A DNA stretch of 64,000 nucleotides, from positions 3,389-67,388 of the IMG/VR virus record IMGVR_UViG_3300033996_001333. The stretch is one strand, 5' to 3'. This document shows positions 3,131 through 62,203 of the stretch, piece after piece. Both the position numbers and the translations under genes were made by a program. Every line of letters starts with the position of its first letter. Position 1 is the first letter of the stretch. The notes beneath the pieces were generated by a model. That model was given only the letters and a program-made list of their open reading frames with translations, was not told the origin of the DNA and did not search any database. Source of the DNA: a virus.

Positions 3131-3138
3131 CCAAACAA

Positions 3139-3154: not shown

Positions 3155-3161
3155 AAGTAAC

Positions 3162-4654: not shown

Positions 4655-5797
4655 ATGACAATTACACGAAAAGAAATTGAAGACGGGATGATCCTGTTTT
4701 GCAAGTCAGGCAGCCACGCCTATGGCCTCAACACCGAGATGTCCGACTTGGACTTTAAGGGAATCTGTGTGGCGCCACAGCGGTTTTACACCACTCTCGA
4801 AACATTTGAGCAAAAGGATAAGGGGTGGGTAGGGGAGCAACAAGACGAGGGTGAGTTCAACTCTAGATTCCCTGAGTTAGATAACTCGGATTCAGTGGTG
4901 TACGGCATTCGCAGGTACCTGAGCTTGTTGCGGTCGCAAAACCCCAACATTTTGGAGATGCTCTGGCAGACTCCCGACAGCTACCTGTACCTTGACTTTC
5001 TGGGGCAGTCGCTAATTGACAACCGGAGGAAGCTAATTTCCAGGAGAATCTCTGGCACATTCGTTCAGTACGCAAGGTCCCAGATCAAGAAAATGGAGAC
5101 TCACCGCAAATGGCTCTTAAACCCTCCAACACGGCGACCGGAGTGGGAGGACTACGGTGTCTCTTCCCCGAGCTTAACCCCGTCTCAAATCGAGTCTTTC
5201 ATCGAGTACTTGTACTTGCTGATTAAAGACAGAATCGAGTACTACCAACCTTCAGTCGAGCTGTACGAGCTTCTCAACGACCGTGTTGATTGGAAAGGAA
5301 TTTTGAAGCAGAGTGTCTTACCGGAGGAGTGCTTCAATGAAACACAGAAAATCACGAGAGCAAGCGATGAGTACATGGCCCTTCTCCACTCAAGCCAACA
5401 GTACCGGTCAGATTTAAAACGGTGGAGTAATTACCAAGATTGGTTGACTAATCGGAATGTGAAGCGATCCGAAATTGAGCGGGCCTGTGGGTACGACGGG
5501 AAGAACGCCAGCCACTGTGTTCGACTTATGAAAATGGCCATTGAGGGAATGCGAACCGGAGAGCTTCTTGTGAATAGAAAGTTGGTTGGGGACGCAGATT
5601 TTCTTCTGGACATTAAGTACGGCAGGATTACGTATGACGAACTAAGCACAATTGTAACTCAGCTCTTTAAGGAGGCTGAGCACGTGGGGAAGAACGAGTG
5701 CGTCTTGCCGAACACGGTAGATGACCAACTCATCAACACTCTCTGTGCTGAGACTGTGGAAAAATTTCAAAGTCTCGGTTGTATTGAGAACCGGTGA
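4655..5797 (+). CDS. pol-beta-type nucleotidyltransferase (PF10127/RlaP-like)
   Basis: Near the N-terminus, GSHAYGLNTEMSDLDFKG matches the GS...DxD nucleotidyltransferase motif. 380 aa. Confidence 0.55.
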   Translation: MTITRKEIEDGMILFCKSGSHAYGLNTEMSDLDFKGICVAPQRFYTTLETFEQKDKGWVGEQQDEGEFNSRFPELDNSDSVVYGIRRYLSLLRSQNPNILEMLWQTPDSYLYLDFLGQSLIDNRRKLISRRISGTFVQYARSQIKKMETHRKWLLNPPTRRPEWEDYGVSSPSLTPSQIESFIEYLYLLIKDRIEYYQPSVELYELLNDRVDWKGILKQSVLPEECFNETQKITRASDEYMALLHSSQQYRSDLKRWSNYQDWLTNRNVKRSEIERACGYDGKNASHCVRLMKMAIEGMRTGELLVNRKLVGDADFLLDIKYGRITYDELSTIVTQLFKEAEHVGKNECVLPNTVDDQLINTLCAETVEKFQSLGCIENR

Positions 5798-8037: not shown

Positions 8038-8039
8038 GC

Positions 8040-8400: not shown

Positions 8401-8428
8401 CCTACACTCCAACCCACGCTGAAACACT

Positions 8429-9779: not shown

Positions 9780-9868
9780 CCCTTGCCCATGGTGCGAGAC
9801 TCTAACCCTTACCTTGGGTCTTATATCCACCCAAGCAAGCCCGCTCAAACAAGAACCATACAAGGAAA

Positions 9869-16426: not shown

Positions 16427-16440
16427 TTTTACCCCGTGCG

Positions 16441-16488
16441 CGGCGGGAAACCGTCCTTTACCCTCGCCCCTAAACAAGCTATAGTAAG
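16441..16488 (+). promoter_or_regulatory. intergenic element copy 6 (GC hairpin in inverted orientation)
   Basis: CGGCGGGAAACCGTCC...CTAAACAAGCTATAGT. Confidence 0.45.
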
Positions 16489-16507
16489 CTCACACCGTAA
16501 AACAACA

Positions 16508-33225: not shown

Positions 33226-33316
33226 GGGGGTAACCGGTTGCCCTGGGGCGGTTTACCCCCTTGCCCTTCCGAAGGGAAAACGGTATAGTTACTTCAGTCC
33301 ACTTGAGCAACCATGT
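33226..33316 (+). promoter_or_regulatory. intergenic element copy 14 plus conserved leader
   Basis: GGGGGTAACCGGTTGCCCTGGGGCGGTTTACCCCCTTGCCCTTCCGAAGGGAAAACGGTATAGTTACTTCAGTCCAC...GCAACCATG. Leader shared with 36876, 37186 and 51340. Confidence 0.55.
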
Positions 33317-33417
33317 TTCCCCTGAACGACCTTTCCGCACTTCACAGCATCTTCTTCACGTTGCTTGGTCTGGTTTCATTGATTCTTGTCCTCAATCGGC
33401 CCCAAACCCGAGCTTGA
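33313..33417 (+). CDS. small hydrophobic peptide (34 aa)
   Basis: MFPLNDLSALHSIFFTLLGLVSLILVLNRPQTRA. ATG at the conserved ...GCAACCATG leader. Confidence 0.3.
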   Translation: MFPLNDLSALHSIFFTLLGLVSLILVLNRPQTRA

Positions 33418-33455
33418 CTCCCTCCACAAATTCCCCCGTCTCATTACCAAACAAA

Positions 33456-33917
33456 ATGACTCTTACGGCACAAGCGGTCCGGCATGCCCAGGCAATCGCG
33501 TTAGACACCAACCCTGGCCTTCCCGCCTTACCTTTCATTCCTGCTACTTGGCTCCCGTCCGACGGCCTTTCTCCTGATCAGCAGGAGGCTAACCTGCTAC
33601 ATGTGGCCTTGTGGGTGGTCGAACGCGATTTGCACAACTTTGATATGGATCAGTGGCACGCCGCCTGGGTTCACTTGTTTGGTGTAGCTCGCAGGGGCTC
33701 CCTGCACATGCTCAACGCATGTGGAACTATCCACTGCATCGCCGGTTTCAGCCAGTTGATGGCGGGTCAGATGGGGTTTGAGCTCACCCCCTGTCTCGCT
33801 GGGACTCGATTGCTTGGTGCAGAAGCCGCATGCCACTTTCGGGACAGCAACGAAGATGGCCTTGCATTCCTTAAAGAGGTGATTGCTCGTAACTCCGCCA
33901 CGTCATTTTCACTATGA
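33456..33917 (+). CDS. paralog A of the LPxLPHIP/CGTVHC family (unknown function)
   Basis: LPALPFIPATW...EANLLHVALWVVERD...CGTIHCIAGFSQLMAG...FLKEVIARNS. One of four paralogs. Confidence 0.55.
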   Translation: MTLTAQAVRHAQAIALDTNPGLPALPFIPATWLPSDGLSPDQQEANLLHVALWVVERDLHNFDMDQWHAAWVHLFGVARRGSLHMLNACGTIHCIAGFSQLMAGQMGFELTPCLAGTRLLGAEAACHFRDSNEDGLAFLKEVIARNSATSFSL

Positions 33918-34363
33918 ACACGATTCTCACCAGGCTTGCCGTTGATTCTATTCGTCACGCCCTGGCCTTGAACACCGGCCCCGGCATTCCACGGCTACCA
34001 CACATTCCAAACAACCTGCTGACGGACATTCTGTTCCCGAAACAGCGGGAGGAAAATCTTTTATTCCTTTCCCTGTGGGTGATTGAGAGAGACTCACATA
34101 ATCTTGAAATGAGTACTTGGCATGCGGATGCCAAGACAGGCTACACAGGAGTCGTAACCCTTCAAAACTGTGGCGAGGTCCATTGCATTTCGGGATTCGC
34201 ACAAGTTATGTGTGGTGAAAAGGGCTTCTTCATGTACCCTGGATTTGTTGGTCGCTTGCTACTTGGGGACGAAGCAGGCACGCACTTCACTGACAGCAAC
34301 GCCGACGCACTTTGCTTCCTTCGCCGAGTTATTTCACGTAATTCCCCTGGTGCTAGTGCTTGA
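33914..34363 (+). CDS. paralog B of the LPxLPHIP/CGTVHC family
   Basis: IPRLPHIPNNL...ENLLFLSLWVIERD...CGEVHCISGFAQVMCG...FLRRVISRNS. ATGA overlap with paralog A. Confidence 0.55.
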   Translation: MNTILTRLAVDSIRHALALNTGPGIPRLPHIPNNLLTDILFPKQREENLLFLSLWVIERDSHNLEMSTWHADAKTGYTGVVTLQNCGEVHCISGFAQVMCGEKGFFMYPGFVGRLLLGDEAGTHFTDSNADALCFLRRVISRNSPGASA

Positions 34364-34370
34364 AACAAGA

Positions 34371-34673
34371 ATGGAAACCGAAAACCTAAACCTGCGGTCT
34401 TTGTGCCGCAAGCAACAAATTGCACTTGCAGTGTTGCGGTCAATGTGCAATTCACAGACGGGCCACCTAGTACTTGAGAATTGGGAGCCAACACTCGACG
34501 ATCTCGACCGCCGTGTGGATGCAGCACTGGCTGAGGTCCCTGCCCCAGGAGACAACTTTCCTGAGAAAACCGGCTTCTTTCGCAAGGCGAAGAATGCAGT
34601 TTTCGACTTTCTGTGCGGCTTCAATCTCCATGACAATGGTGATTGCTACAGGGCAACAACCCACCCACGTTAA
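34371..34673 (+). CDS. hypothetical protein
   Basis: Internal ATG (METENLNLRSL) of track ORF 34170. Confidence 0.4.
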   Translation: METENLNLRSLCRKQQIALAVLRSMCNSQTGHLVLENWEPTLDDLDRRVDAALAEVPAPGDNFPEKTGFFRKAKNAVFDFLCGFNLHDNGDCYRATTHPR

Positions 34674-34737: not shown

Positions 34738-35148
34738 ATGACTACCTCTACCGAAACACGTCCGAGCACTCAGGCAAGTTCACTAACCATCCCTAGTCTC
34801 CCGCACATTCCAGAAAGTTGGGACATTGTGCTTTCCCCTGAACAACAAGGAGAGAACTTACGGCACGTTGCACTCTGGATTGTGGAGCGTGACTTGGATA
34901 ACTTCAATATGTTTGCGTACCACCTGAATGGGGACTACACCAATTACTGGGAGGGAATAAACACCAGTAACTGCGGTACGGTTCACTGCATCGGAGGTTT
35001 CTCACAAGTTATGTGTGGAGAACTGGGCTTCACTGTCCACCCTCGGATTGCAGGAAACAGGCTGTTAGGAGAAGAGGCCGAAAGCCACTTCTCGGACACC
35101 ACTGAAGACGGTCTTGCTTTCCTTCGGGAAGTGATCGCTCGCGGTTAG
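34738..35148 (+). CDS. paralog C of the LPxLPHIP/CGTVHC family
   Basis: IPSLPHIPESW...ENLRHVALWIVERD...CGTVHCIGGFSQVMCG...FLREVIARG. Confidence 0.55.
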   Translation: MTTSTETRPSTQASSLTIPSLPHIPESWDIVLSPEQQGENLRHVALWIVERDLDNFNMFAYHLNGDYTNYWEGINTSNCGTVHCIGGFSQVMCGELGFTVHPRIAGNRLLGEEAESHFSDTTEDGLAFLREVIARG

Positions 35149-38044: not shown

Positions 38045-38600
38045 ATGATTGAGGCTAAAGGGGCAATGAAAGTGTACACAGGAATTGGGGGGCGAGAGAC
38101 ACCTGGTCCGATTCTGGCACTTATGGGCCGAATTTCGGCAAGGATGGACCGTCTAGGATTCACACTGCGCTCGGGTGGTGCAGACGGGGCTGACTCAGCT
38201 TTTGAGGAACACTCTACGAGAAAAGAGATATTTCTCCCGTACAACGGCTTTAATGGAAGGCACCACGATGGCGTATCCTACTTTGACTACCTTTTGTGTC
38301 CAGGACGAGAGCTAGCTCAAGAAAGCGTGGAGCGGTTCCACCCCGCACCCTCTCGGCTCTACGGTAAGGGGCGAAAGTTAATGGCTAGGAACGCGATGCA
38401 AGTCCTAGGGAGAGACTGCAAGAGCCCAACAGACGTGGTAATTTGCTGGACAAAAACGGTAAGGATGTCGGTGGAACTTCGCAGGGGATTCGCATCGCTA
38501 GGTTTCACAACATTCCTATCCTTAACCTTGGCAACTCGGCCACAGAGACCTATCTCACTGCTTTCACAGACGATTCCGACTCGCCTTTTGTACTTCCTTA
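38045..38600 (+). CDS. SLOG-family protein (DUF2493/DprA-like), apparently frame-shifted
   Basis: YTGIGGRETP...LRSGGADGADSAFEE is a DUF2493/SLOG motif. Near 38452-38456 (CAAAAAC) the coding signal moves to the -1 frame, which reads ...GKDVGGTSQGIRIARFHNIPILNLGNSATETYLTAFTDDSDSPFVLP*. The track ORF tail beyond about 38470 reads as non-coding. Confidence 0.45.
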
Positions 38601-38666
38601 GGGCGGTTTCCCGGTTATCCTGGGGCGGTTTCCCCGTTTGTTTTCCAGACGGAAAACGCTATAGTA
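38601..38666 (+). promoter_or_regulatory. intergenic element copy 18 (double motif)
   Basis: GGGCGGTTTCCCGGTTATCCTGGGGCGGTTTCCCCGTTTGTTTTCCAGACGGAAAACGCTATAGT. Confidence 0.55.
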
Positions 38667-38708
38667 TGTTTATACGGGACAAAACCCGCAATCCATCCCT
38701 CAGACAAA

Positions 38709-38987
38709 ATGGCATTCACATCCGAAGGAACAATCGAGATCGACCTTCCCGAGTTATGGGAATGGGTTCACGACAACTATCTCCCTGTCCCCAGGGGGTC
38801 TGAGGTACGTTATGGGGTGCCCCGCATCAACCGTGGGAACTCCGTCATGGAAATTGACTTTGCGGCTGCTACCGAGTGCGATCCGGCGGATTGGGCGGTG
38901 AAGCCGAAGGCGGTGACCCAGTGGGATTCTACTGGCGCTGCACCAACTGAGGGTCCTACCGAGGGGGGGAGCTCAACATACCATTGA
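38709..38987 (+). CDS. hypothetical protein
   Basis: 92 aa. The 3' end contains a G7 tract at 38963-38969. Confidence 0.45.
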   Translation: MAFTSEGTIEIDLPELWEWVHDNYLPVPRGSEVRYGVPRINRGNSVMEIDFAAATECDPADWAVKPKAVTQWDSTGAAPTEGPTEGGSSTYH

Positions 38988-39159: not shown

Positions 39160-40281
39160 ATGGCAAACATCGAACGCAAACTCGCCTCCGTCCGACAAGT
39201 AACGGAGATTCGCCCAATCCCGGACGCCGACGCAATTGAGTGCGCCATCGTGGGAGGTGGCTGGCCCGTTGTCGTGAAGAAGGGGGAGTTCCAAGCTGGC
39301 GATCTTGCAATCTACTTCGAGATTGACTCGTGGATCCCCCACGGGCTTGCCCCGTTCTTGTCAAAGGGGAAGGAACCAAGGGAGTACAATGGAGTGAAGG
39401 GGGAAAGGTTGAAAACCGTCCGGCTCCGTGGCCAAGTCTCTCAGGGTCTCCTACTTCGCTTCTCGGACATCTCTCCAAGCTTCTACGTTGTTTCGCTAGC
39501 TGAACCTTATGGGGGGAGGGGATCTCTCCGAGTTGATGAGTGTGTGTGGGAAGAAGGCGAAGATTTCACTCTAGAGTTTGGCATTCAGAAATGGGAGGCC
39601 ACGGTCCCCGCTTGCCTTGCCGGACAAGTGCGTGGAAACTTCCCGAGTTTTTTGGTTAAGAGTGACCAAGAGAGATGTCAAAATATCGTGAGAAAAATCT
39701 TCGAGGAGCACAAGGAGGAAACCTACGAAGTATCCTTGAAGCTGGACGGGTCTTCCTGCACCATTTATGCCCGAGACGGGGACAGTGGCGTGTGTAGCCG
39801 CAACCTAGACCTTAAGGAAACAGAAGGAAACAGCTTCTGGAAGGCTGCTCGAGAACAAGGTGTAATCGACGCCTTGCTGTCCTATAATAAGGAAACCGGT
39901 CGCAACATTGCTCTTCAGATGGAGCTGTGCGGTGAAGGAATTCAAGGAAACCAAGAAGGAATCAAAGGACAACGGCTTTTTCTTTTTGACGTCTTCGACA
40001 TCGACACTCAGACCTACATGAAGCCGGGGCAGCGACTTGTTTTCCTTGACGAGGTTTTGACTGAGCTTGGGGCCAAGTTGGAACACACTCCCATTATTGA
40101 CCTTCGAACTTACGTTGCCGGACGATTCGCCAACCTTGACGAGCTACTTGCTTATGCAGATGGTCCGTCTATGAACCCAAAAGTCAAGCGTGAAGGTGTG
40201 GTGTTCAAATCGTACGACTCCGCGTTCTCCTTCAAGGCCATTAGCAACGAGTGGTTGCTGTGGAAAGGGAAGAAAGGGTGA
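39160..40281 (+). CDS. RNA ligase, DraRnl/DRB0094-like (Rnl5 family)
   Basis: N-terminal KLASVRQVTEIRPIPDADAIECAIVGGGWPVVVKKGEFQAGDLAIYFEIDSWIP resembles the DRB0094-family N-domain. Motif I candidate VSLKLDGSS (KxDG). Confidence 0.55.
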   Translation: MANIERKLASVRQVTEIRPIPDADAIECAIVGGGWPVVVKKGEFQAGDLAIYFEIDSWIPHGLAPFLSKGKEPREYNGVKGERLKTVRLRGQVSQGLLLRFSDISPSFYVVSLAEPYGGRGSLRVDECVWEEGEDFTLEFGIQKWEATVPACLAGQVRGNFPSFLVKSDQERCQNIVRKIFEEHKEETYEVSLKLDGSSCTIYARDGDSGVCSRNLDLKETEGNSFWKAAREQGVIDALLSYNKETGRNIALQMELCGEGIQGNQEGIKGQRLFLFDVFDIDTQTYMKPGQRLVFLDEVLTELGAKLEHTPIIDLRTYVAGRFANLDELLAYADGPSMNPKVKREGVVFKSYDSAFSFKAISNEWLLWKGKKG

Positions 40282-41531: not shown

Positions 41532-42041
41532 ATGAGTACACTTTATAGGGCCAACGGAGACCTGTTAGTGCTGGCTCGCAAGGGTCAGTTTGACATAATT
41601 GTCCACGGCGCCAATTGTTTTAATAAGATGGCTTCAGGCATCGCGGGGCAAATAAGCCGTGAGCACCCTGAAGCAGCGAACGTTGACCTTTCCACTCGGG
41701 CAGGGGACCGGGGCAAACTCGGTCGTTTTACCATGGCACAGGTTCAAGGGAGCGGTAACCATACTTTCTACATTGTCAACGCATATACTCAGTACTCGTA
41801 CGGAAGGGGCAAAGACATTTTCGAGTATGACTTTTTCCGAGACTTTCTCAAAAGTTTTCAAACTTTTTTAAGGAGCGGCGCCATGGCTGCGCCACTGGAC
41901 GGGAAGTTTGCGGTAGGATTCCCATACATTGGGTGCGGTCTCGCTGGCGGAGACGAAGAAAAGATAGTGAATATGCTCGAAAGTTTTTCCGGATCGTGCC
42001 ACGATATTGCGGAAGTCACTCTCGTACGGTACGTGCGATGA
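41532..42041 (+). CDS. macro domain protein (ADP-ribose binding/hydrolase)
   Basis: IVHGANCFNKMASGIAGQI and GFPYIGCGLAGGD match the macro-domain patterns VNAAN...GGGVA.AI and FP.I.tGi.G. Confidence 0.65.
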   Translation: MSTLYRANGDLLVLARKGQFDIIVHGANCFNKMASGIAGQISREHPEAANVDLSTRAGDRGKLGRFTMAQVQGSGNHTFYIVNAYTQYSYGRGKDIFEYDFFRDFLKSFQTFLRSGAMAAPLDGKFAVGFPYIGCGLAGGDEEKIVNMLESFSGSCHDIAEVTLVRYVR

Positions 42042-42689: not shown

Positions 42690-43427
42690 ATGAATAACGT
42701 TACTTCCAATTTTGCCTTCATCGGCGACCTACACTCTCAGAGAAAGCCCCTGCTCAAAGCACTCGATTATTGCCGAGGAGCAAATTGCACACCAATTTTC
42801 CTCGGCGACCTTTTTGACTCTCGCATGGAAACAAGCGACAGTGTGGGTGTGTACAAAGCCGTTCGGCAAGCCGTGGAAGAAGGGGCGATTGTGCTTCGAA
42901 GCAACCACCAAAACAAGCTGGAGCGTTACGCTCGCGGGAACAACGTGGTTCTTAAAGAGGGCTTTGAGCGTACTGTGCAAGACTTCTCAGACGCAGGTAT
43001 CCCTATTGAGGAAGTCTCTGCCTGGCTGGAAACTTTTCCCTACGGGGTTGCCTTGCGAGATTCCAGAGGGACAGAGTACCGTTGTGCTCACGCGATGTTT
43101 CCGAAGTGGGTTCTTGTTCCGCCGTCTTACACAGGAGTATACCGTGTGAATGAGGTTACGAGAAAAGCCAAGGACTACATGCTATTTGGTCCTCGCCGTC
43201 CCGGTGCGGTGTACCCTCAAGATGAGACTCGTGTCTTTTGGTGGGAAGAGGAATGCGATCGGACCTGGGTTCGTGTCGCAGGGCACTACCACCACGTTCA
43301 CACGAGCGAGAAGAGCCTGGTTCTCGACGGTCAGATGGGTGGCAGCACTCAGAAAAGTTTTGACCCGGCGCACGCTCGCCTCTGTGTGTGGAACCTGGAA
43401 GAACAGACCCTTGTTCAGTTTGCTTAG
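42690..43427 (+). CDS. calcineurin-like metallophosphoesterase
   Basis: FIGDLHSQ...IFLGDLFDSR...SNHQN matches the GDxHG / GDxxDRG / GNH(E/D) pattern. Confidence 0.6.
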   Translation: MNNVTSNFAFIGDLHSQRKPLLKALDYCRGANCTPIFLGDLFDSRMETSDSVGVYKAVRQAVEEGAIVLRSNHQNKLERYARGNNVVLKEGFERTVQDFSDAGIPIEEVSAWLETFPYGVALRDSRGTEYRCAHAMFPKWVLVPPSYTGVYRVNEVTRKAKDYMLFGPRRPGAVYPQDETRVFWWEEECDRTWVRVAGHYHHVHTSEKSLVLDGQMGGSTQKSFDPAHARLCVWNLEEQTLVQFA

Positions 43428-46648: not shown

Positions 46649-48133
46649 ATGACAACGCCATCCTTTTTAAACGCACTCGAAAACGAGTTTAACCAAACCA
46701 TCACCGCTAACGGTGCAAAGGCATACAAGTCCACCGAGTCTAAGTGCCTGGACCTCTTTGGAAAGATTGCAGCTTGCCGTGACAACATCAGCGAAGCAAC
46801 TCGCCTATTCAATCTTGCTTATGCCGAAAACCCTGAGACCGCAACTCGAATCCTGTTTTGGGCACGCGACATTCGTGGGGGCCAGGGAGAGCGAAAGATC
46901 TTTCGAGAAGTTTTTAAGGAACTCGTCCTCAATGACGCTGCAATTGGTGCCAGGCTAGTTAGCCTGATTCCACAGTACGGTCGCTGGGATGATGTGGTAG
47001 CCCTCGACGGTACCTTAGTTTGGGGCATCGCACTCGAAGCAATTAAGGCACAACTGAACGCCGACCTAAATACGGAAGTTGGAAAGTCAGTGTCACTTCT
47101 GGCAAAGTGGCTGCCTTCCATTAACGCTTCCAGCCAGGACTCTAAGAGGATTGGCCGAAAAATTGCCGAAGCAATGGGTTGGACCGAGAGACAGTACCGC
47201 AAGGCACTGACTGCCCTCAGGACCCAAGTCAAAATTGTTGAGCAGCCAATGTGTGCTCGTGAGTGGGAAAGCATTGACTATAGCAAGTTGCCTTCTCGGG
47301 CCGGCTTTATGTACCGTAAAGCTTTCGTCAAGCGCGACGGCAACCGCTACCAATCCTACCTTGACTCGGTAGAAAAAGGTGAGGCAAAAATCAATGCCGG
47401 TACGATCTACCCTTACGAGATCGTGCACAAGTACCTTTACGGGGGCGATAGGAGTGATCAAACCTTAAACTTAATGTGGGAAGCTCTACCCAACTACATG
47501 GAAGGAGAGCAGCTGAACGGCCTGGTAATTGCCGACGTCTCAGGATCAATGGGAAACAACGGCGGCATGCCCATGGCGGTTTCAATCTCGCTGGCGATGT
47601 ACATCGCTGAGCGTAACACCGGGGCATGGAAGGATAAGTTCCTAACCTTCTCCGGAAGTCCGCAGTTGCAGTCGGTTACAGGGAGAAACGTTGCTGAGCG
47701 TGTTAGTAACCTTAGTCGGGCCGACTGGGGTGCGAATACAGACCTGCAAGCAGTCTTCAATCTTGTGTTGGCTACCGCAACGAGGAACCATATTCCTGAG
47801 GGGGAAATGCCGCGCAAGCTCATCATTGTCTCAGACATGCAGTTTGATTCCTGCTGCAGAAACAACTCAGTGACAAACTTTGAGGCGGTGCGAATCAAGT
47901 ATGCTCAAGCAGGGTATTCCTTGCCGGAACTTGTCTTCTGGAATGTTAGCTCTAGCGGCAACGTACCTATGAAAATGCATGATACGGGGACTTGCCTGGT
48001 CTCCGGATGCAGCCCTTCAATCCTGAAAGCTGTGCTTACTGGCGGGGTAATTACGCCTGTAGGGGTTATGCGTGACGCTGTTTACACTGAAAGGTACGAC
48101 GCTGTCGGTGCCGTATTTGCTGAAGGAGCATGA
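46649..48133 (+). CDS. vWA/MIDAS protein with N-terminal helical TROVE/DUF2828-like region (Ro60-like architecture)
   Basis: C-terminal LVIADVSGSMGNNGGMPMAVSISLAMYIAE carries the vWA MIDAS motif DxSGS. The helical N-terminal 300 aa and the 494-aa size fit DUF2828/Ro60-like proteins. Confidence 0.5.
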   Translation: MTTPSFLNALENEFNQTITANGAKAYKSTESKCLDLFGKIAACRDNISEATRLFNLAYAENPETATRILFWARDIRGGQGERKIFREVFKELVLNDAAIGARLVSLIPQYGRWDDVVALDGTLVWGIALEAIKAQLNADLNTEVGKSVSLLAKWLPSINASSQDSKRIGRKIAEAMGWTERQYRKALTALRTQVKIVEQPMCAREWESIDYSKLPSRAGFMYRKAFVKRDGNRYQSYLDSVEKGEAKINAGTIYPYEIVHKYLYGGDRSDQTLNLMWEALPNYMEGEQLNGLVIADVSGSMGNNGGMPMAVSISLAMYIAERNTGAWKDKFLTFSGSPQLQSVTGRNVAERVSNLSRADWGANTDLQAVFNLVLATATRNHIPEGEMPRKLIIVSDMQFDSCCRNNSVTNFEAVRIKYAQAGYSLPELVFWNVSSSGNVPMKMHDTGTCLVSGCSPSILKAVLTGGVITPVGVMRDAVYTERYDAVGAVFAEGA

Positions 48134-49399: not shown

Positions 49400-49521
49400 C
49401 GAAGAGTAGCCAAGTGGTTAGGCAGCGGTAATGCAAAAAGATTACCTAGCTTAGGTAATTCAGCAACTACCCAATACGCAAAAGGAACCGCCATACGCAA
49501 GTTCGAATCTTGCCTCTTCGA
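49400..49521 (+). tRNA. tRNA-like gene with about 50-nt insertion in the anticodon region
   Basis: Acceptor CGAAGAG/CTCTTCG, D-arm GCC-AAGTGGTTA-GGC, T-arm GCAAG-TTCGAAT-CTTGC, variable CATAC. The anticodon-stem-like helix GCGGT/ACCGC encloses 57 nt. Anticodon undetermined. Confidence 0.4.
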
Positions 49522-49985: not shown

Positions 49986-50097
49986 GGGACCGTAGCTCAA
50001 CTGGTAGAGCACGAAAAGTTATCTTGACAAAGATACATCAGCAATTAAATTACCTCTTTTAAAGGCGCGGTTGCAGGTTCGAGTCCTGCCGGTCCCA
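49986..50097 (+). tRNA. tRNA-like gene with about 40-nt insertion in the anticodon region
   Basis: Acceptor GGGACCG/CGGTCCC, TA, D-arm GCTC-AACTGGTA-GAGC, T-arm GCAGG-TTCGAGT-CCTGC. 61 nt lie between the D-arm and the T-arm where 21-22 are expected. Confidence 0.4.
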
Positions 50098-54580: not shown

Positions 54581-54652
54581 GCCCTGGTAGCTCAGTGGAA
54601 GAGCACTGTCCTTCTAAGACACCGGTCGTGGGTTCGAATCCCCCTCAGGGCG
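54581..54652 (+). tRNA. tRNA-Arg (anticodon UCU)
   Basis: GCCCTGG-TA-GCTC-AGTGGAA-GAGC-A-CTGTC-CTTCTAA-GACAC-CGGTC-GTGGG-TTCGAAT-CCCCC-TCAGGGC-G. 72 nt, one mismatch each in the anticodon and T stems. Confidence 0.6.
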
Positions 54653-54903: not shown

Positions 54904-54992
54904 GGGCGTGTGGTGTACGGTGCACAGGGACCCTTATACAGTCCTCTCCGGCAGATTACCGGCTAGTTAGGGTTCGACTCCCTACACGCCTA
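54904..54992 (+). tRNA. class II-like tRNA (long variable arm), anticodon uncertain (possibly UAU)
   Basis: Acceptor GGGCGTG/CACGCCT, T-arm AGGG-TTCGACT-CCCT, variable hairpin CCGG-CAGATTA-CCGG. The anticodon stem GGACC/AGTCC has a 31-39 mismatch. 89 nt. Confidence 0.45.
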
Positions 54993-55082
54993 CTTAGTTT
55001 CAAGTCCTCGAAAACTCGTTAAAGAACACACCCACAGGTCATATCCGGTGAACGACACAGGAGTGGCCCACCACGGTGACAA

Positions 55083-55167
55083 GGAAGAGTGGCTGAGCGG
55101 CCGAAAGCAGCAGCTTCGAACACTGTAGAGGGTTAAACCTCCGGGGGTTCAAATCCCCCCTCTTCCG
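55083..55167 (+). tRNA. tRNA-Ser (anticodon CGA)
   Basis: GGAAGAG-TG-GCTGAGCGGCCGAAAGC, a class II D-arm aligning to E. coli tRNA-Ser. Anticodon loop TTCGAAC, variable arm GAGGGTTAAACCTC, T-arm GGGGG-TTCAAAT-CCCCC, acceptor CTCTTCC. Confidence 0.6.
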
Positions 55168-57956: not shown

Positions 57957-58421
57957 ATGGAAAACAACCTCGAAGCATATGTGATGGTCGGTGCCCCTGG
58001 CTCCGGTAAGTCAACCCATGTGGCTAAGCTACTAGAGCTTCACCCAGATGCCGTTGTACTTTCCGGCGATGAAATCCGCGCCGAGCTCTACGGGAACGCG
58101 GACATTCAGGGAAATTACGTAGAAATCCACGACCGCATGCTTGAGATTCTGGAGGAGAGTGTCGGTCGCACCGTGATTATGGACGGAACACATTACAGGG
58201 CAGCTTACCGCAAGGAAGCAGTTGCCATGCTAAACTCGTACGGTTACTGCAAAATCACCGCTGTTGTCCTTGACAAGCCTCTCGCCGTTTGCTTGCGGCA
58301 AAATGCCTCTCGCGACCGCAAGGTTCCGGAAGAAGTAATTGAGCGCATGCACGCCTCCTTACAAGCTTCCCTCAAGAATATCACCAACGAACCCTTCCAC
58401 CGTACTGACTTTGTATACTGA
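57957..58421 (+). CDS. P-loop polynucleotide kinase-like protein (T4 Pnk kinase-domain-like)
   Basis: VMVGAPGSGKST Walker A motif. 154 aa, about the size of the Pnk kinase module. Confidence 0.55.
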   Translation: MENNLEAYVMVGAPGSGKSTHVAKLLELHPDAVVLSGDEIRAELYGNADIQGNYVEIHDRMLEILEESVGRTVIMDGTHYRAAYRKEAVAMLNSYGYCKITAVVLDKPLAVCLRQNASRDRKVPEEVIERMHASLQASLKNITNEPFHRTDFVY

Positions 58422-58425
58422 CGAA

Positions 58426-59133
58426 ATGATAACTTACGACGAAAAGTTACACCCAGGTGACGTAGTTGCCCTTGGTGACATTCACGCGACCTGGACTCTT
58501 TTCGAACAATTTCTAAATTGGGTGAAAGGGTCTCAAGCCACCGTCATACTTTTAGGTGACATGATTGATCGTGGTAGGGGCGACCTGAAAGTTTTGGAGT
58601 ATACGAAAAAGCTCCTCGACGATCCGGAAAGTTGGGGGCTTCAAGCCTTTTATGCCCTGATGGGGAACCACGAGAGGATGTTTCTTGACGCCCTTGACGA
58701 CCCAAGTAGTTACGCTCTGTGGATTCAAAACGGCGGAAACTATGACCAGGTGGGTGAGATGGAAAGAAAGCATAAGGAGTGGATTCGGGAGCTGCCCTTA
58801 TACATGACAATTGCGGACACTCTCTTCATTCACGCGGGGATCTACCCCGGTCACGACCCTGCAAAGCTCATTGTCGATGGAAGGGGGGAGGCACTGCTAT
58901 GGATTCGTCAACCTTTCTTGACCTATGGGCCGGAATTCGAAGGGTGGAACCCGAGACTGAAGAAAGTTGTTCACGGGCATACTCCCACCAACTTCGAAGA
59001 GCCCCCACAGGACTATATCCCGATTGTGATGGGGCAACGCGTAAATATTGACACATGCGCATACTCCAAGCCAAAGGGTCGCCTAACCGCTTACAACGTT
59101 ACTCGAAATACTTTTCACCAGTTCTCACGGTAA
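58426..59133 (+). CDS. calcineurin-like metallophosphoesterase (lambda phosphatase/Pnkp phosphoesterase-like)
   Basis: VVALGDIHATW...ILLGDMIDRGRG...MGNHE matches GDxHG / GDxxDRG / GNHE. Confidence 0.65.
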   Translation: MITYDEKLHPGDVVALGDIHATWTLFEQFLNWVKGSQATVILLGDMIDRGRGDLKVLEYTKKLLDDPESWGLQAFYALMGNHERMFLDALDDPSSYALWIQNGGNYDQVGEMERKHKEWIRELPLYMTIADTLFIHAGIYPGHDPAKLIVDGRGEALLWIRQPFLTYGPEFEGWNPRLKKVVHGHTPTNFEEPPQDYIPIVMGQRVNIDTCAYSKPKGRLTAYNVTRNTFHQFSR

Positions 59134-59176: not shown

Positions 59177-60061
59177 ATGAAACTGCTTCTCGTAGACACA
59201 TCTGCACTATTTTATCGCTCTCGATCAGCTCTCTGTCGAGCTATGGGTGAAATGGTTACGAGCTATGGAGCTCCAGTAACTGGGACTTATGGGTTTTGCA
59301 ACGCCTTACTTGCCGTGATGGCTCAGTACGAGTACGATTGCGTAGTTCCTTGTACAGATAAAGGTGGAAACTTTCGCAAGAAAGAATCCGGTACTTATAA
59401 GGCGAACCGAGAAAAAGCCAGCGTTGAGCACTACTCCGACCTTTCCCTCCTGGTTGAAGACGTCCTTCCAGCTCTTGGCTTTTCGCCAGTGGGTGCCCAG
59501 GGTTTTGAGGCGGACGATGTTGTAGCCCATATTTCTCGTAACTCTCCTGGATATAGTGAAGTTCACATTTTGACTTGCGACAAGGACTTGCTTCAGCTTG
59601 TCAACGACAGAGTAAAGGTACTGCTTTTCAACTCAGCTAAGAAAATGGAGCTGGTTGACATTGAGGGGGTTAAAGGGCACTTCGGTGTTCCCCCCTCAGA
59701 CGTCAAGTTCTTCAAGGCTTTGTCTGGGGACTCCTCAGATAACATATCAGGTGTCTCCGGCGTTGGCCCGAAAACCGCTGTGAAGATAATCCAAGAGTGC
59801 CACACCAGCGGTACAAACTCAGAGCTGTCGCTCACCGATCGAATCGCGTTCCATCCTAAGGTGGTTTCAACTGCGTCCACATTCTTTAGTAACCTTCGCT
59901 TGGTCACTCTTGAGAACGACGTCCCCGACATGTCGTGGTACGCCTCTTCACCGCCGTCTGAACAGAGTGTAAAAGCAGTCTTTGAGGGCTTAGAGTTCAA
60001 GTCATACTTAAAGCCAGCACGGTTGAGCAAGATTCTGGAAACACTCAAGGTTGTTTCGTAG
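59177..60061 (+). CDS. 5'-3' exonuclease / flap endonuclease (T4 RNase H-like)
   Basis: MKLLLVDTSALFYRS, FEADDVVAHI and ILTCDKDLLQLV align to T4 RNase H. H3TH motif GVSGVGPKTAVKII. Confidence 0.7.
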   Translation: MKLLLVDTSALFYRSRSALCRAMGEMVTSYGAPVTGTYGFCNALLAVMAQYEYDCVVPCTDKGGNFRKKESGTYKANREKASVEHYSDLSLLVEDVLPALGFSPVGAQGFEADDVVAHISRNSPGYSEVHILTCDKDLLQLVNDRVKVLLFNSAKKMELVDIEGVKGHFGVPPSDVKFFKALSGDSSDNISGVSGVGPKTAVKIIQECHTSGTNSELSLTDRIAFHPKVVSTASTFFSNLRLVTLENDVPDMSWYASSPPSEQSVKAVFEGLEFKSYLKPARLSKILETLKVVS

Positions 60062-61541: not shown

Positions 61542-61805
61542 ATGAGCCATACTTCCGCGATTACACAGGTCTTTACACAAGGTGAAGGTGAAGAAATTCA
61601 CCGTTCGGTGAGTCTCCCCAACTCAGACTGGCTCGTTTTAGCTCAGTGTGCCGAAGCCTTTTCCTCCACCTTTAGGGCACAAGCGAGTCAGGTAGTTGCC
61701 ACTTATGTGACACGTGGACAGCTTGATTTGGCTGTGAGCGAGGCAGCGAAAATGAACATATTGCTTCAACAGCTAGACAGCATTCACATTGCCCTTATGT
61801 CGTGA
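61542..61805 (+). CDS. hypothetical protein
   Basis: 87 aa ORF. Confidence 0.4.
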   Translation: MSHTSAITQVFTQGEGEEIHRSVSLPNSDWLVLAQCAEAFSSTFRAQASQVVATYVTRGQLDLAVSEAAKMNILLQQLDSIHIALMS

Positions 61806-62203
61806 CGCCTAAAAATAACCCCTTAGTGGTGTTTGATATTGACATGACACTCACGAGTGAGTGGTATTACGAAGACAATGTTGCAACGCTTCGAGCCAAT
61901 TTGCCACTCGTTCAACTTGCAGTATCTCTAGCTGTATCCGGTGTTACAATCCTTATATCCACTGCTCGCCCAAATCGTCTTCGAGCCGACTCAGAAAACT
62001 GGCTACAAAGTGTGGGTGTTAAGTTCGACGCCTTATACATGAGAGAGGACGGGGACGATCGCCCCGACCACTACGTTAAGACCGAGCAAGCTCTCGCAAT
62101 TATTGAAGATTTCGGACGTCCTTCACTTTGGTACGACGACAACCAAGACAACTGTAAAGTTGTGAGAGAACTTGGGATTCCTTGTGTTCAGGTTATGCAA
62201 TGA
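61802..62203 (+). CDS. HAD-superfamily phosphatase (Pnk 3'-phosphatase-like)
   Basis: VVFDIDMTLTS is the DxDxT HAD motif I. GTG start overlapping the upstream stop. Confidence 0.55.
   Translation: MTPKNNPLVVFDIDMTLTSEWYYEDNVATLRANLPLVQLAVSLAVSGVTILISTARPNRLRADSENWLQSVGVKFDALYMREDGDDRPDHYVKTEQALAIIEDFGRPSLWYDDNQDNCKVVRELGIPCVQVMQ

What the first reader, a model, noticed from the sequence alone, without database searches (positions are those of the whole stretch)
39160..40281. Distributed RNA-repair toolkit: two distinct RNA ligases, a Pnk-like kinase, HAD and calcineurin-type phosphatases, a pol-beta nucleotidyltransferase
The window encodes the following.
- An Rnl1-like ligase (24657-25769, motif I KYDGS).
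- A DraRnl/DRB0094-like ligase (39160-40281, KLDGSS plus the characteristic N-terminal domain).
- A P-loop kinase of Pnk kinase-module size (57957-58421).
- An adjacent lambda-phosphatase-type phosphoesterase (58426-59133).
- A HAD DxDxT phosphatase (61802-62203).
- A second metallophosphoesterase (42690-43427).
- A PF10127-like nucleotidyltransferase (4655-5797).

Together these cover 5'-OH kinase, 2',3'-cyclic/3'-phosphate removal and sealing, the T4 Pnk/Rnl1 solution to host anticodon nucleases.

In bacterial Pnkp these activities are fused in one polypeptide. Here they are split into separate genes. Two mechanistically different ligases suggest more than one RNA substrate class.
Basis: partly seen in the sequence, partly recalled or inferred. 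Interest (0 to 1): 0.6.

Follow-up and report, generated by a model that had tools for sequence, protein, structure and literature searches.

The report
Phage RNA-repair kit with Ro60-like RNP
A large uncultured phage carries a scattered but recurrent set of RNA-repair enzymes (two RNA ligases, an end-healing kinase and phosphatases, an RNA-tailing enzyme), a kind of kit already described for giant phages, and next to it a Ro60-like protein with two odd tRNA-shaped RNAs that look like a new type of partner RNA.

Summary
The focal ORF (39160-40281) is a full Rnl5/DraRnl-type nick-sealing ligase with every catalytic residue of the Naegleria exemplar. The kinase and the adjacent lambda-type phosphoesterase form a conserved two-gene cassette. 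It is split relative to bacterial Pnkp and often has a HAD_PNKP phosphatase nearby. Rnl5 recurs within 10 kb of Rnl1-family ligases, Pnk-type kinases and HAD_PNKP in several different gene arrangements, so the kit is a recurrent association. It is dispersed, not an operon, and function is inferred. Such distributed kits are already described for jumbo phages (Iyer et al. 2021), so the kit itself is a new member of a known kind. Caveat: both phosphoesterases also occur in a phage that lacks ligases. New here: the DUF2828/DUF7788 gene (46649-48133) folds like Ro60 (TROVE+vWA). It is followed by two tRNA-shaped RNAs (49400-49521, 49986-50097) whose anticodon arm carries a conserved hairpin-CAGCAAU module. 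47 of 48 loci with a close homologue of this gene carry 1-4 such RNAs. This resembles the Ro60-Y RNA pairing, but the RNA design is undescribed.

The parts
39160..40281 (+). Rnl5 (DraRnl/NgrRnl-type) ATP-dependent nick-sealing RNA ligase: N-terminal OB domain plus nucleotidyltransferase domain
   Evidence: The counterparts of NgrRnl R4, D53, K121, R149, K170, D172, R190, E227, F248, E312 and K326 are all conserved (alignment read against PMC7261155).
24657..25769 (+). Distant Rnl1-family RNA ligase (T4 RnlA-like). Motif I is KYDGS; the counterparts of E159, E227/G228 and K240/K242 are present.
   Evidence: It falls below the TIGR02308 equivalog cut-off (45.5 vs 242 bits).
57957..58421 (+). Pnk-type P-loop 5'-OH polynucleotide kinase (AAA_33): GAPGSGKS P-loop, D-x-x-R motif and lid arginines aligned to the CthPnkp kinase domain
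   Evidence: best NCBIfam model TIGR04075 bacter_Pnkp, positions 11-151, 3.9e-16.
58426..59133 (+). Lambda-phosphatase-type binuclear metallophosphoesterase (MPE1), cassette partner of the kinase. Motifs GDIH, GDMIDRG, GNHE, HAG and GHT are present.
   Evidence: The kinase-MPE1 cassette is conserved in 4 of 4 sampled homologue neighbourhoods and in L017.
61802..62203 (+). Stand-alone HAD_PNKP 3'-phosphatase (DIDMT nucleophile motif)
   Evidence: A HAD_PNKP gene lies 1-1.2 kb downstream of the kinase-MPE1 cassette in L301 and L302 and near an Rnl1 gene in L027.
42690..43427 (+). Second metallophosphoesterase (MPE2) with variant motifs (GDLH, GDLFDSR, SNHQ, GHYHH). It is closest to the phosphatase domain of bacterial Pnkp.
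   Evidence: It lies 1.3-9 kb downstream of Rnl5 in 8 of 80 Rnl5 loci.
41532..42041 (+). Macro-like protein in a 'phosphatase' PHROG, between Rnl5 and MPE2. It is a possible ADP-ribose-1''-phosphate-type phosphatase; its membership of the kit is tentative.
   Evidence: Pfam Macro E 0.0054, below cut-off. phrog_335 at 4.8e-39. Found near Rnl5 in 8 of 80 loci, including L056.
4655..5797 (+). RlaP (PF10127) Pol-beta-type nucleotidyltransferase with a GS...DLD motif. Characterised relatives add 1-2 NMP to RNA 3'-OH ends.
   Evidence: Biochemistry of relatives: PMC12776372. RlaP, Rnl1, Pnk, Thg1 and the CCA-adding enzyme cluster in Vibrio phage D69.
5794..6306 (+). DUF5662 protein whose start overlaps the RlaP stop codon by 4 nt. 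Function unknown.
46649..48133 (+). Ro60-like RNA-binding protein (DUF2828+DUF7788): helical-repeat TROVE-like domain plus a vWA domain with an invariant MIDAS motif (DVSGSM)
49400..49521 (+). tRNA-shaped RNA 1 (122 nt): intact acceptor, D and T arms. The stem GCGGU/ACCGC closes a hairpin-CAGCAAC module, and there is no anticodon loop.
   Evidence: 78.7 bits with model R1; Rfam tRNA 44.7 bits, no other family.
49986..50097 (+). tRNA-shaped RNA 2 (112 nt): a tRNA-Lys(UUU) body with a 39-nt hairpin-CAGCAAU module inserted between positions 28 and 29 of the anticodon stem
   Evidence: 94.7 bits. Conserved with a compensatory change in L010.
59177..60061 (+). FEN/5'-3' exonuclease (T4 RNase H-like), a conserved downstream neighbour of the kinase-MPE1 cassette. 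It is relevant to the DNA-repair rival explanation.
54581..54652 (+). tRNA-Arg(UCU), an ordinary phage tRNA (tRNA supplementation)
55083..55167 (+). tRNA-Ser(CGA), an ordinary phage tRNA

Best explanation
The window is part of the accessory region of a large, probably jumbo, uncultured phage. It encodes a dispersed RNA end-healing and sealing kit of the kind phages use to keep the translation apparatus working when host nucleases cut tRNAs and other RNAs.

Inferred mechanism:
1. Breaks with 2',3'-cyclic or 3'-phosphate and 5'-OH ends are healed by the kinase-MPE1 cassette. The kinase phosphorylates the 5'-OH end. The lambda-type phosphoesterase opens and removes the cyclic or 3'-phosphate.
2. 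The stand-alone HAD_PNKP 3'-phosphatase and perhaps MPE2 assist.
3. RlaP can add back a nucleotide lost from the 3' end.
4. The Rnl1-family ligase seals breaks in single-stranded loops such as the anticodon loop. The Rnl5 ligase seals 3'-OH/5'-PO4 nicks that lie within duplex RNA.
5. A Ro60-like protein with two adjacent tRNA-shaped RNAs probably forms an RNP that binds damaged or misfolded RNA, or recruits tRNA-binding factors. The model for this is the bacterial rsr-Y RNA-rtcBA operon.

What is shown: the family memberships, the intact catalytic motifs, the conserved kinase-MPE1 cassette, the recurrent linkage of the genes, the Ro60-like fold and the strict gene-RNA association. What is inferred: all substrates, all activities and the cooperation between the parts.
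For: Family assignments and motifs.

Fusion evidence: one tblastn piece spans the kinase/MPE junction in Bacillus SPbeta-like phages and in 778-aa Staphylococcus phage 'RNA ligase' proteins. phrog_8238 (737 aa) matches the kinase, MPE1 and MPE2.

Cassette: an AAA_33 kinase lies immediately upstream of MPE1 homologues of 50-53% identity in 4 of 4 neighbourhoods. HAD_PNKP follows 1-1.2 kb downstream in two of them.

Compact version: L017 carries Rnl5, macro-like, MPE2, HIGH nucleotidyltransferase, kinase, MPE1, FEN and HAD within 10 kb, in the window's order.

Genes within 10 kb of Rnl5 in 80 loci: Rnl1-family 20, Ro60-like 17, kinase 8, MPE2 8, HAD 3. They occur in at least five arrangements and at identities down to 26-32%, and the distant ones are verified by Pfam.

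Vibrio phage D69 has phosphoesterase, Pnk, Rnl1, Thg1, RlaP and the CCA-adding enzyme within 12 kb.

Literature: distributed kits in jumbo phages (PMC7824862), RlaP activity (PMC12776372), Rnl5 nick sealing (PMC4408790 and PMC7261155).

Ro60-like fold.

RNA association: 47 of 48 close homologue loci carry the RNAs, all 120 hits are on the gene's strand, and there is no comparable hit elsewhere in 1.34 Mb.
Against: - The genes are spread over 57 kb among more than 100 unrelated ORFs, with no operon.
- MPE1 and MPE2 homologues occur in S-CBWM1, which lacks ligases, the Pnk kinase, HAD_PNKP, RlaP and the Ro60-like gene. All 120 closest MPE1 relatives are stand-alone lambda-phosphatase-like proteins, so a role as a protein phosphatase or nucleotide phosphatase is possible.
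- The kinase lies next to a HIGH-family nucleotidyltransferase, and the cassette lies next to a FEN nuclease. These neighbours could point to NAD salvage or to DNA transactions.
- The physiological role of Rnl5 is uncharted, and its deletion sensitises Deinococcus to ionising radiation (PMC5397189).
- RlaP is never within 10 kb of Rnl5 in the 80 loci.
- The loci compared are partly related by descent, so counts overstate the number of independent events.
- No host nuclease target is known for this phage.
Confidence: 0.68

Rival explanations
1. The genes are unrelated accessory functions that merely sit in the same hyperplastic region. MPE1 and MPE2 would be protein Ser/Thr phosphatases or Ap4A/nucleotide phosphatases. 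The kinase, with the upstream HIGH nucleotidyltransferase, would serve NAD salvage (NadR-like NMNAT plus riboside kinase). HAD would be a nucleotidase.
For: - MPE1's best NCBIfam models are PrpA/PrpB protein phosphatases and ApaH; MPE2 also matches PrpE.
- Both phosphoesterases occur in the ligase-less S-CBWM1, where the MPE2 homologue follows an NMNAT gene.
- The window encodes NAMPT-like and Prs-like genes and a HIGH nucleotidyltransferase at 57203-57706.
- The closest MPE1 relatives are all stand-alone proteins.
Against: - The kinase's best matches are Pnkp, PSTK, Pnkp1 and T4 Pnk. No NadR kinase appears at E<0.1.
- The kinase-MPE1 pairing is conserved with HAD_PNKP nearby.
- Fused kinase-phosphoesterase-ligase relatives exist.
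- Kinase homologues of 27-32% identity sit beside Rnl5 without any HIGH nucleotidyltransferase in L056 and L076-L080.
- HAD matches the PNKP-specific model, and the top PDB hits are Pnkp1 and T4 Pnk.
Confidence: 0.17
2. Rnl5, the kinase-MPE1 cassette, HAD and FEN act on DNA or on RNA-DNA junctions. They would heal and seal nicks with ribonucleotide 3' ends during phage replication or DNA repair, rather than repair cleaved tRNA.
For: - Rnl5 enzymes seal nicked duplexes whose 3'-OH strand is RNA, including an RNA strand joined to a 5'-PO4 DNA strand on a DNA template (PMC7261155; PMC4408790).
- DraRnl loss sensitises D. radiodurans to ionising radiation (PMC5397189).
- FEN directly follows the kinase-MPE1 cassette in the window, L017, L303 and L305.
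- T4 Pnk-type enzymes also act on DNA ends (own knowledge).
- A DprA-like gene lies just upstream of Rnl5.
Against: - Rnl5 recurs beside Rnl1-family (tRNA-type) ligases and a Ro60-like RNA-binding gene.
- RlaP relatives act on RNA only (PMC12776372).
- The same region carries tRNAs, a tmRNA and EF-Ts, which gives it a translation-maintenance theme.
- This rival could hold for Rnl5 and the cassette without excluding RNA repair by Rnl1.
Confidence: 0.1
3. The kit mainly processes phage-encoded RNAs. The module in the anticodon stem of the tRNA-shaped RNAs would be excised by an unidentified endonuclease. The exons would then be healed and rejoined, with Rnl5 sealing the nick left in the stem duplex. 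That would be protein-dependent tRNA splicing in a phage.
For: - Deleting the 39-nt (window) or 45-nt (L010) insertion gives a perfect 73-nt tRNA-Lys(UUU), with a co-varying stem.
- 55 of 84 distinct RNAs can form a 5-bp stem with a 7-nt loop around the module, against about 8% expected by chance, and 40 of those 55 keep U33.
- The junction lies inside a helix, which is the substrate type preferred by Rnl5.
- 'Enigmatic' tRNA introns have been reported in megaphages (10.1101/356790).
Against: - The window's other copy, and about a third of the family, have no recoverable anticodon stem-loop.
- Anticodon-loop positions 32-34 drift, and U33 is often lost.
- The RNAs are tied to the Ro60-like gene, not to the tRNA arrays, and those phages already carry 26-30 normal tRNAs.
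- No splicing endonuclease was found among the window's ORFs.
Confidence: 0.05

Closest known systems
Distributed RNA-repair complements of jumbo phages (Iyer, Anantharaman, Krishnan, Burroughs, Aravind 2021, PMC7824862) and the T4 Pnk/Rnl1/Rnl2 paradigm
   Same: The same components are present: several ATP-dependent RNA ligase families in one genome, Pnk kinases, HAD and calcineurin-like phosphatases, RlaP, a ROT/TROVE protein, phage tRNAs and NAD+ salvage genes. The same rationale applies, namely countering host attack on tRNAs.
   Different: This set pairs Rnl5 with a distant Rnl1. The review discusses RtcB, Rnl1 and Rnl2. The healing kinase is partnered with a lambda-type metallophosphoesterase in a two-gene cassette, with HAD as a separate gene, whereas T4 Pnk fuses the kinase to HAD. 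The genome appears related to cyanophage-like lineages.
Bacterial Pnkp (Clostridium thermocellum Pnkp/Hen1)
   Same: The kinase domain is the best structural and profile match (4gp7, TIGR04075). It is joined by a binuclear metallophosphoesterase of the lambda-phosphatase type, in the same N-to-C order (kinase, then phosphoesterase).
   Different: The parts are split into separate genes. There is no C-terminal ligase-like adenylyltransferase domain, and ligation would be supplied in trans by Rnl1 or Rnl5. No Hen1 methyltransferase was found in the window.
Rnl5 family: Deinococcus radiodurans DraRnl and Naegleria gruberi NgrRnl
   Same: Same domain order (N-terminal OB domain plus nucleotidyltransferase domain, no C-terminal domain). 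All active-site residues are conserved. The protein passes the curated equivalog cut-off.
   Different: It is phage-encoded. In near-identical relatives the catalytic domain has been swapped for a foreign allele next to a putative homing endonuclease (L015, L066).
Ro60-Y RNA RNPs: Salmonella rsr-yrlBA-rtcBA, Deinococcus Rsr/Yrn1, mycobacteriophage YrlA, Thermus phage phiLo Ro60/Yrl1-2
   Same: A TROVE-like helical ring plus a vWA/MIDAS domain. One or more small tRNA-related RNAs are encoded within a few hundred nucleotides on the same strand. The locus is linked to RNA ligase genes.
   Different: The protein is too diverged to hit the TROVE Pfam model and is filed as DUF2828/DUF7788. The RNAs are unpermuted tRNA bodies with open acceptor ends and a hairpin-CAGCAAU module in the anticodon arm. 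YrlA, by contrast, is permuted and carries a GNCGAA motif, and the phiLo RNAs are stem-bulge-stem Y RNAs. No Rfam Y-RNA family matches.

Membership tests
Rnl5 (DraRnl/NgrRnl nick-sealing RNA ligases) | N-terminal OB domain followed by a nucleotidyltransferase domain, with no C-terminal appended domain | tested here: met
   PF21189 covers residues 8-99 and PF09414 covers 188-360 of 373 aa. The protein aligns end to end with NgrRnl.
Rnl5 (DraRnl/NgrRnl nick-sealing RNA ligases) | Motif I lysine nucleophile plus motifs III, IIIa, IV and V, and the OB-domain ATP-contacting residues | tested here: met
   KLDGSS, ELCGEG, FLFDVF, EGVVFK and FSFKAIS are present. The counterparts of R4, D53, K121, R149 and R190 are conserved.
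Rnl5 (DraRnl/NgrRnl nick-sealing RNA ligases) | Score above the curated equivalog threshold (TIGR02306) | tested here: met
   191.9 bits against a cut-off of 151.15.
Rnl5 (DraRnl/NgrRnl nick-sealing RNA ligases) | Seals 3'-OH/5'-PO4 nicks in duplexes whose 3'-OH strand is RNA | not testable with these tools
   Requires biochemistry.
Rnl1 (T4 RnlA) | Rnl1-type nucleotidyltransferase domain with motifs I, III, IV and V | tested here: met
   PF09511 at 54.2 bits (cut-off 28.3). The counterparts of K99, E159, E227/G228 and K240/K242 are aligned.
Rnl1 (T4 RnlA) | Equivalog-level similarity to T4 RnlA (TIGR02308) | tested here: not met
   45.5 bits against a cut-off of 242.25. It is therefore a distant family member, not an RnlA orthologue.
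Rnl1 (T4 RnlA) | C-terminal helical tRNA-specificity domain | tested here: inconclusive
   The phrog_562 alignment reaches profile position 350 of 377, but the alignment to T4 Rnl1 stops at residue 257. No structure was predicted.
Bacterial Pnkp (CthPnkp) | Kinase, metallophosphoesterase and ligase-like domains in one polypeptide | tested here: not met
   The kinase (154 aa) and MPE1 (235 aa) are separate ORFs 4 nt apart, and no ligase-like domain is attached.
Bacterial Pnkp (CthPnkp) | Pnk-type kinase: P-loop, catalytic Asp-x-x-Arg and lid arginines | tested here: met
   GAPGSGKS, SGDEIR and RQNASRDRK align with the CthPnkp kinase domain.
Bacterial Pnkp (CthPnkp) | Binuclear metallophosphoesterase motifs (DxH, GDxxDR, GNH[DE], H, GH) | tested here: met
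   MPE1 has GDIH, GDMIDRG, GNHE, HAG and GHT. MPE2 has variant forms: GDLH, GDLFDSR, SNHQ and GHYHH.
Bacterial Pnkp (CthPnkp) | Partner Hen1 2'-O-methyltransferase | tested here: not met
   No methyltransferase family appears among the Pfam hits for the window's ORFs of 60 aa or more.
T4 Pnk | Kinase fused to a HAD 3'-phosphatase | tested here: not met
   The kinase (57957-58421) and HAD (61802-62203) are separate genes 3.4 kb apart.
T4 Pnk | HAD phosphatase with the DxDxT nucleophile motif, of the PNKP type | tested here: met
   DIDMT is present. PF25109 scores 60.1 bits (cut-off 27.6). PDB hits are Pnkp1 4xrp and T4 Pnk 1ltq.
RlaP (PF10127) | Pol-beta nucleotidyltransferase core (G-S...D-x-D), above the Pfam threshold | tested here: met
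   67.1 bits (cut-off 23). The motif reads GSHAYGLNTEMSDLD.
RlaP (PF10127) | Gene adjacent to an RNA ligase gene | tested here: not met
   The nearest ligase is 19 kb away in the window. RlaP is not within 10 kb of Rnl5 in any of the 80 loci. It is 3 kb from Rnl1 in Vibrio phage D69.
Ro60/TROVE | Match to the TROVE sequence family | tested here: not met
   Pfam gives only DUF2828 and DUF7788. There is no PDB sequence hit at E<=10.
Ro60/TROVE | Helical-repeat ring plus vWA domain with a MIDAS motif (fold level) | tested here: met
Ro60/TROVE | Small partner RNA encoded next to the gene | tested here: met
   47 of 48 loci with a homologue of at least 60% identity, and 12 of 16 loci at 39-41% identity, carry model-R1 hits on the same strand within about 2.2 kb.
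Y RNA / YrlA | 5'/3' terminal stem as the Ro-binding module, GNCGAA motif, and (for YrlA) a permuted tRNA-like domain | tested here: not met
   Only the generic tRNA model matches. The RNAs have open acceptor ends and a hairpin-CAGCAAU module instead. The YrlA design is taken from PMC4201824.

The most novel reading that the evidence does not exclude
The DUF2828/DUF7788 proteins are a large, unrecognised branch of Ro60. Their partners are a new class of tRNA-derived RNAs: unpermuted tRNA bodies with a hairpin-CAGCAAU module in the anticodon stem, many still displaying an anticodon-like loop such as Lys-UUU.

In this phage the RNP would work together with the ligase and end-healing genes. It could present bait tRNA anticodon arms to host anticodon nucleases, acting as a decoy or sensor. 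Alternatively, the RNAs could be precursors whose stem insertion is excised and re-sealed by the nick-sealing Rnl5, which would be a protein-dependent RNA cut-and-rejoin pathway in a bacteriophage.
Probability: 0.2. Interest if true: 0.85.

Novelty: new variant of a known kind. Interest (0 to 1): 0.55.

Why it matters
Host defences that cut tRNAs (PrrC, RloC, PARIS, Cas13 collateral cleavage and others) are now seen as widespread, and phage countermeasures are under active study. This locus gives three things.
- A clean natural example of the Pnkp end-healing module split into a conserved kinase-phosphoesterase cassette, with ligation supplied in trans by two different ligase families.
- A physiological context for Rnl5 ligases, whose biological role is still unknown.
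- A very abundant Ro60-like protein family (over 7,000 homologues) with a consistently adjacent, structurally conserved and undescribed tRNA-shaped RNA.

The last point makes the function of phage Ro60-type RNPs, and their link to RNA repair, directly testable by RIP-seq, northern blots and in vitro ligation.

Tried and rejected
- Megablast of 6 kb around the ligase against 50,697 phage records found nothing, so the phage has no sequenced close relative among isolates.
- I first read the 112-nt element as an intron-containing tRNA-Lys(UUU) needing splicing. I downgraded this after finding that the window's second copy, and about a third of the family, lack any anticodon loop. The RNAs also track the Ro60-like gene rather than the tRNA arrays.
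- ARAGORN's intron-mode solution (Gly-ACC) was rejected as a weak all-A-U stem.
- Brute-force excision scored with ARAGORN was too permissive to be informative.
- I checked the minus strand of the module for a hammerhead core by eye and found no match. No Rfam ribozyme or Y-RNA family hits the region.
- The motif-only search of viral contigs returned mostly chance matches; only 3 further unrelated contigs (L113, L181, L183; 4 RNAs) were real.
- A search for literature on DUF2828 function found nothing.
- The idea that MPE1's close relatives would be kinase fusions was wrong: all 120 are stand-alone proteins, but the kinase is their conserved neighbour.
- The putative homing endonuclease in L015 has no Pfam hit, so its GIY-YIG/NUMOD nature is unverified.
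- The promoter/terminator scan around the RNAs was uninformative.
- The NadR-type riboside kinase reading of the kinase was considered and rejected on profile evidence.
Full report
CONTEXT

The window is a run of about 137 small ORFs, all on the + strand, at about 50% GC. No isolate phage matches it at the DNA level. The exact Rnl5 protein occurs on metagenome contigs. Near-identical genes lie on IMG/VR contigs of up to 277 kb, so the source is probably a jumbo phage. The nearest isolates by single proteins are cyanophages: S-CREM1 (Rnl5, 61% identity) and S-CBWM1 (MPE1 42%, MPE2 45%).

Pfam scans of every ORF of 60 aa or more show a region rich in translation-maintenance and counter-defence genes. 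These include EF-Ts, a permuted tmRNA, tRNAs, NAMPT-like and Prs-like genes, an ADP-ribosylglycohydrolase and a macro-like protein.

OBSERVATION

Focal ORF (39160-40281). It has the PHA02142 OB domain and the RNA_ligase domain. It aligns over its whole length with Naegleria gruberi RNA ligase (E 4.4e-85) and passes the curated DRB0094 equivalog cut-off. I read the alignment against the residues studied by Unciuleac et al. (PMC7261155). The counterparts of Arg4, Asp53, Lys121, Arg149, Lys170, Asp172, Arg190, Glu227, Phe248, Glu312 and Lys326 are all present.

Rnl1-like ORF. It matches PF09511 and T4 Rnl1, with the motif I lysine and the Glu159, Glu227/Gly228 and Lys240/Lys242 equivalents. It lies far below the RnlA equivalog threshold, so it is a distant member of the family.

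Kinase. Its best matches are the kinase domain of C. thermocellum Pnkp (4gp7) and the bacterial Pnkp model, followed by PSTK, Pnkp1 and T4 Pnk. The P-loop, D-x-x-R motif and lid arginines are conserved.

The rest. MPE1 has all the lambda-phosphatase motifs. MPE2 is a variant whose best models are the Pnkp phosphatase domain (TIGR04075, 4j6o). HAD has DIDMT and matches the PNKP-specific HAD model. RlaP is above threshold with the G-S...D-x-D core.

ARE THE GENES A SYSTEM?

They are dispersed over 57 kb, so linkage has to be judged from other genomes.

1. Fusion. A concatenated kinase+MPE1 query aligns as a single tblastn piece across the junction in Bacillus SPbeta-like phages. It does the same in Staphylococcus phage proteins of 778 aa annotated as RNA ligase or polynucleotide kinase. 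The two separate genes therefore keep the domain order of the fused form.

2. Cassette. The 120 closest MPE1 relatives are stand-alone proteins. Yet in 4 of 4 sampled neighbourhoods (50-53% identity) an AAA_33 kinase sits immediately upstream, with a 6-nt gap or an 8-nt overlap. HAD_PNKP lies 1-1.2 kb downstream in two of them, and FEN follows directly in the others.

3. Compaction. L017 holds Rnl5, macro-like, MPE2, HIGH nucleotidyltransferase, kinase, MPE1, FEN and HAD within 10 kb, in the window's order.

4. Recurrence. The table gives the number of the 80 loci centred on Rnl5 relatives (plus or minus 10 kb) that also carry each gene.

| Gene within 10 kb of Rnl5 | Loci (of 80) |
|---|---|
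| Rnl1-family ligase | 20 |
| Ro60-like gene | 17 |
| NAMPT-like gene | 11 |
| Pnk-type kinase | 8 |
| MPE2 | 8 |
| Macro-like gene | 8 |
| HAD_PNKP | 3 |

The Rnl1 genes occur in at least five arrangements: 8-9 kb upstream, 2-3 kb upstream, directly downstream, about 10 kb downstream, and on the opposite strand. Their identities go down to 26-30%. Pfam confirms the distant ones as RNA_lig_T4_1, AAA_33 and HAD_PNKP.

5. An island elsewhere. Vibrio phage D69 carries the nearest RlaP homologue and an Rnl1 homologue. It clusters a phosphoesterase, Pnk, Rnl1, Thg1, RlaP and the CCA-adding enzyme within 12 kb.

Caveats. Many of the loci are related by descent. RlaP is never near Rnl5. The complete genome of S-CBWM1 has MPE1, MPE2 and the HIGH nucleotidyltransferase but none of the ligases, kinase, HAD, RlaP or Ro60-like gene, so the phosphoesterases can exist without the rest.

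WHAT IS KNOWN

Iyer et al. 2021 (PMC7824862) describe this kind of complement in jumbo phages. It includes combinations of RNA ligase families thought to be non-redundant, Pnk kinases, HAD and calcineurin-like phosphatases, RlaP mirroring the ligases, a ROT/TROVE protein with a tRNA-like partner, tRNAs and NAD+ salvage.

RlaP proteins add one or two NMPs to RNA 3'-OH ends, preferring damaged RNA (PMC12776372). Rnl5 enzymes seal 3'-OH/5'-PO4 nicks in duplexes with an RNA 3'-OH strand. Their physiological role is uncharted, and DraRnl loss sensitises Deinococcus to radiation (PMC4408790, PMC5397189).

T4 itself already carries two different RNA ligases (own knowledge).

THE UNEXPECTED PART

The RNA. 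Rfam reported a 112-nt 'tRNA' at 49986-50097, with 52 nt where the anticodon arm should be. Removing 39 nt between positions 28 and 29 gives a perfect tRNA-Lys(UUU). The diverged relative L010 has a 45-nt insertion at the same place and a compensatory stem change.

Screening the fetched loci showed more such elements in three tRNA backbones. All have a homologous insertion (A-rich stretch, 6-bp hairpin, CAGCAAU, then A/U-rich stretch), and all lie downstream of the DUF2828/DUF7788 gene. A motif-only search of IMG/VR found three more unrelated contigs. Each carries a 64%-identical DUF2828 gene 200-500 nt upstream on the same strand, plus 26-30 ordinary tRNAs elsewhere.

The window has a second copy at 49400-49521. 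Its stem closes the module, and it has no anticodon loop.

The census. A covariance model (R1) built from 30 RNAs scores the two window copies at 95 and 79 bits, against about 31 bits for ordinary tRNAs. Across the 80 DUF2828 loci it finds 120 hits of at least 71 bits, all on the gene's strand. The breakdown by identity class is below.

| Identity of the Ro60-like homologue | Loci with the RNA | Position of the RNA |
|---|---|---|
| 60% or more | 47 of 48 (the 48th has no downstream DNA); 1-4 copies each | 57-2172 nt downstream |
| 42-59% | 0 of 16 | none found |
| 39-41% | 12 of 16 | 160-370 nt upstream |

In 1.34 Mb of Rnl5-centred loci, the only comparable hits (14) are those next to DUF2828 genes. 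The next best score is 44 bits.

Structure. The module hairpin co-varies: it is 98% paired, and 4 of 5 pairs show changes on both sides. My candidate filter favoured paired hairpins, so this is partly by construction. Of the 84 distinct RNAs, 55 can still form a 5-bp stem with a 7-nt loop around the module. Their anticodons are diverse, and 40 of the 55 keep U33.

Comparison with known Y RNAs. YrlA is circularly permuted and carries a GNCGAA motif (PMC4201824). The phiLo Yrl RNAs are stem-bulge-stem RNAs with a CGAA motif (PMC12135203). No Rfam Y-RNA family matches here.

My reading is that this is a diverged Ro60-like RNP with a new, tRNA-derived partner RNA design. Its closest analogue is the Salmonella rsr-yrlBA-rtcBA repair operon (PMC7790460, listed; own knowledge for the operon layout). 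Whether it cooperates with the ligases is inferred only from the 17-of-80 linkage.

VERDICT

The kit is a new member of a known kind. The split kinase-phosphoesterase cassette and the Ro60-like/tRNA-shaped-RNA pair are new variants of known kinds. The latter is the part most worth an experiment.

Noticed in passing
window 8068-8326 (+); ARAGORN call 8034-8417: A phage-encoded permuted (two-piece) tmRNA. It scores 67.9 bits on Rfam RF04321 (gathering score 47). ARAGORN gives the tag peptide ANNIVKFERIAVAV. This fits the translation-rescue theme of the region.
   Followed up: partly
window 3093-3770 (+): A phage-encoded elongation factor Ts homologue (PF00889, E 6.1e-30).
   Followed up: no
window 16436-17449, 17446-18960 and 57203-57706 (+): A Prs-like gene (ribose-phosphate diphosphokinase family) overlaps by 4 nt with a NAPRTase/NAMPT-family gene. 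This resembles the two-enzyme phage NAD+ reconstitution pathways. A HIGH-family (NMNAT-like, HPGH motif) nucleotidyltransferase sits just upstream of the kinase. NAMPT-like genes lie within 10 kb of Rnl5 in 11 of 80 loci.
   Followed up: partly
L015 10001-12217 and L066 10001-12166 (relatives with 97-100% identical flanking genes): The Rnl5 gene is a chimera. Its OB domain is nearly identical to the window's, but its catalytic domain is foreign (65% and 48% overall identity). It is followed by a 377-aa opposite-strand ORF that looks GIY-YIG/NUMOD-like by eye (no Pfam hit), then by a 60-aa remnant of the native ligase 3' end. This looks like gene conversion of the ligase driven by a homing endonuclease.
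   Followed up: partly
L074 12015-12119 (+): A separate phage lineage (Rnl5 47% identical, with an Rnl1-family gene nearby) has a tRNA-Lys(CUU)-like gene. It carries an insertion of about 32 nt, containing a hairpin, in the anticodon loop, without the CAGCAAU module. It scores 44 bits with model R1.
   Followed up: no
window 9783-10730 and 41532-42041 (+): An ADP-ribosylglycohydrolase (PF03747, 3.5e-61) and a macro-like protein in a 'phosphatase' PHROG. Both are candidates for reversing ADP-ribosylation or processing ADP-ribose phosphate by-products.
   Followed up: partly
window 38045-38803 (+): A DprA-like (phrog_768, 1.2e-42) protein lies directly upstream of Rnl5. It is conserved at that position in the close relatives.
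   Followed up: no
window 54904-54993 (+): ARAGORN calls a 90-nt tRNA-Ile(UAU) with a 3-bp D stem and a long extra arm. Neither Rfam nor model R1 supports it.
   Followed up: partly
window 19060-19650 (+); L181 9744-10181; L183 3456-3893: An HNH endonuclease (phrog_16726, 5.8e-49). Its homologues sit right next to the Ro60-like gene in other phages, so it is probably a mobile homing endonuclease.
   Followed up: no
window 33261-33917, 34170-34673 and 34738-35148 (+): These ORFs cross-match each other's homologues in L015 and L066 (about 48-66% identity). They appear to be a small tandem paralogous family of unknown function.
   Followed up: no
L305 6418-6911: Acb2/Tad1-hairpin and Tad2-like anti-defence genes lie 2 kb downstream of a kinase-MPE1-FEN cassette in a related contig.
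   Followed up: no
L265, L267, L269-L271, L273, L275-L284 (Ro60-like homologues of 42-59% identity): This clade of the Ro60-like family has no model-R1 RNA within 4 kb on either side. Whatever RNA it uses, if any, is different.
   Followed up: no
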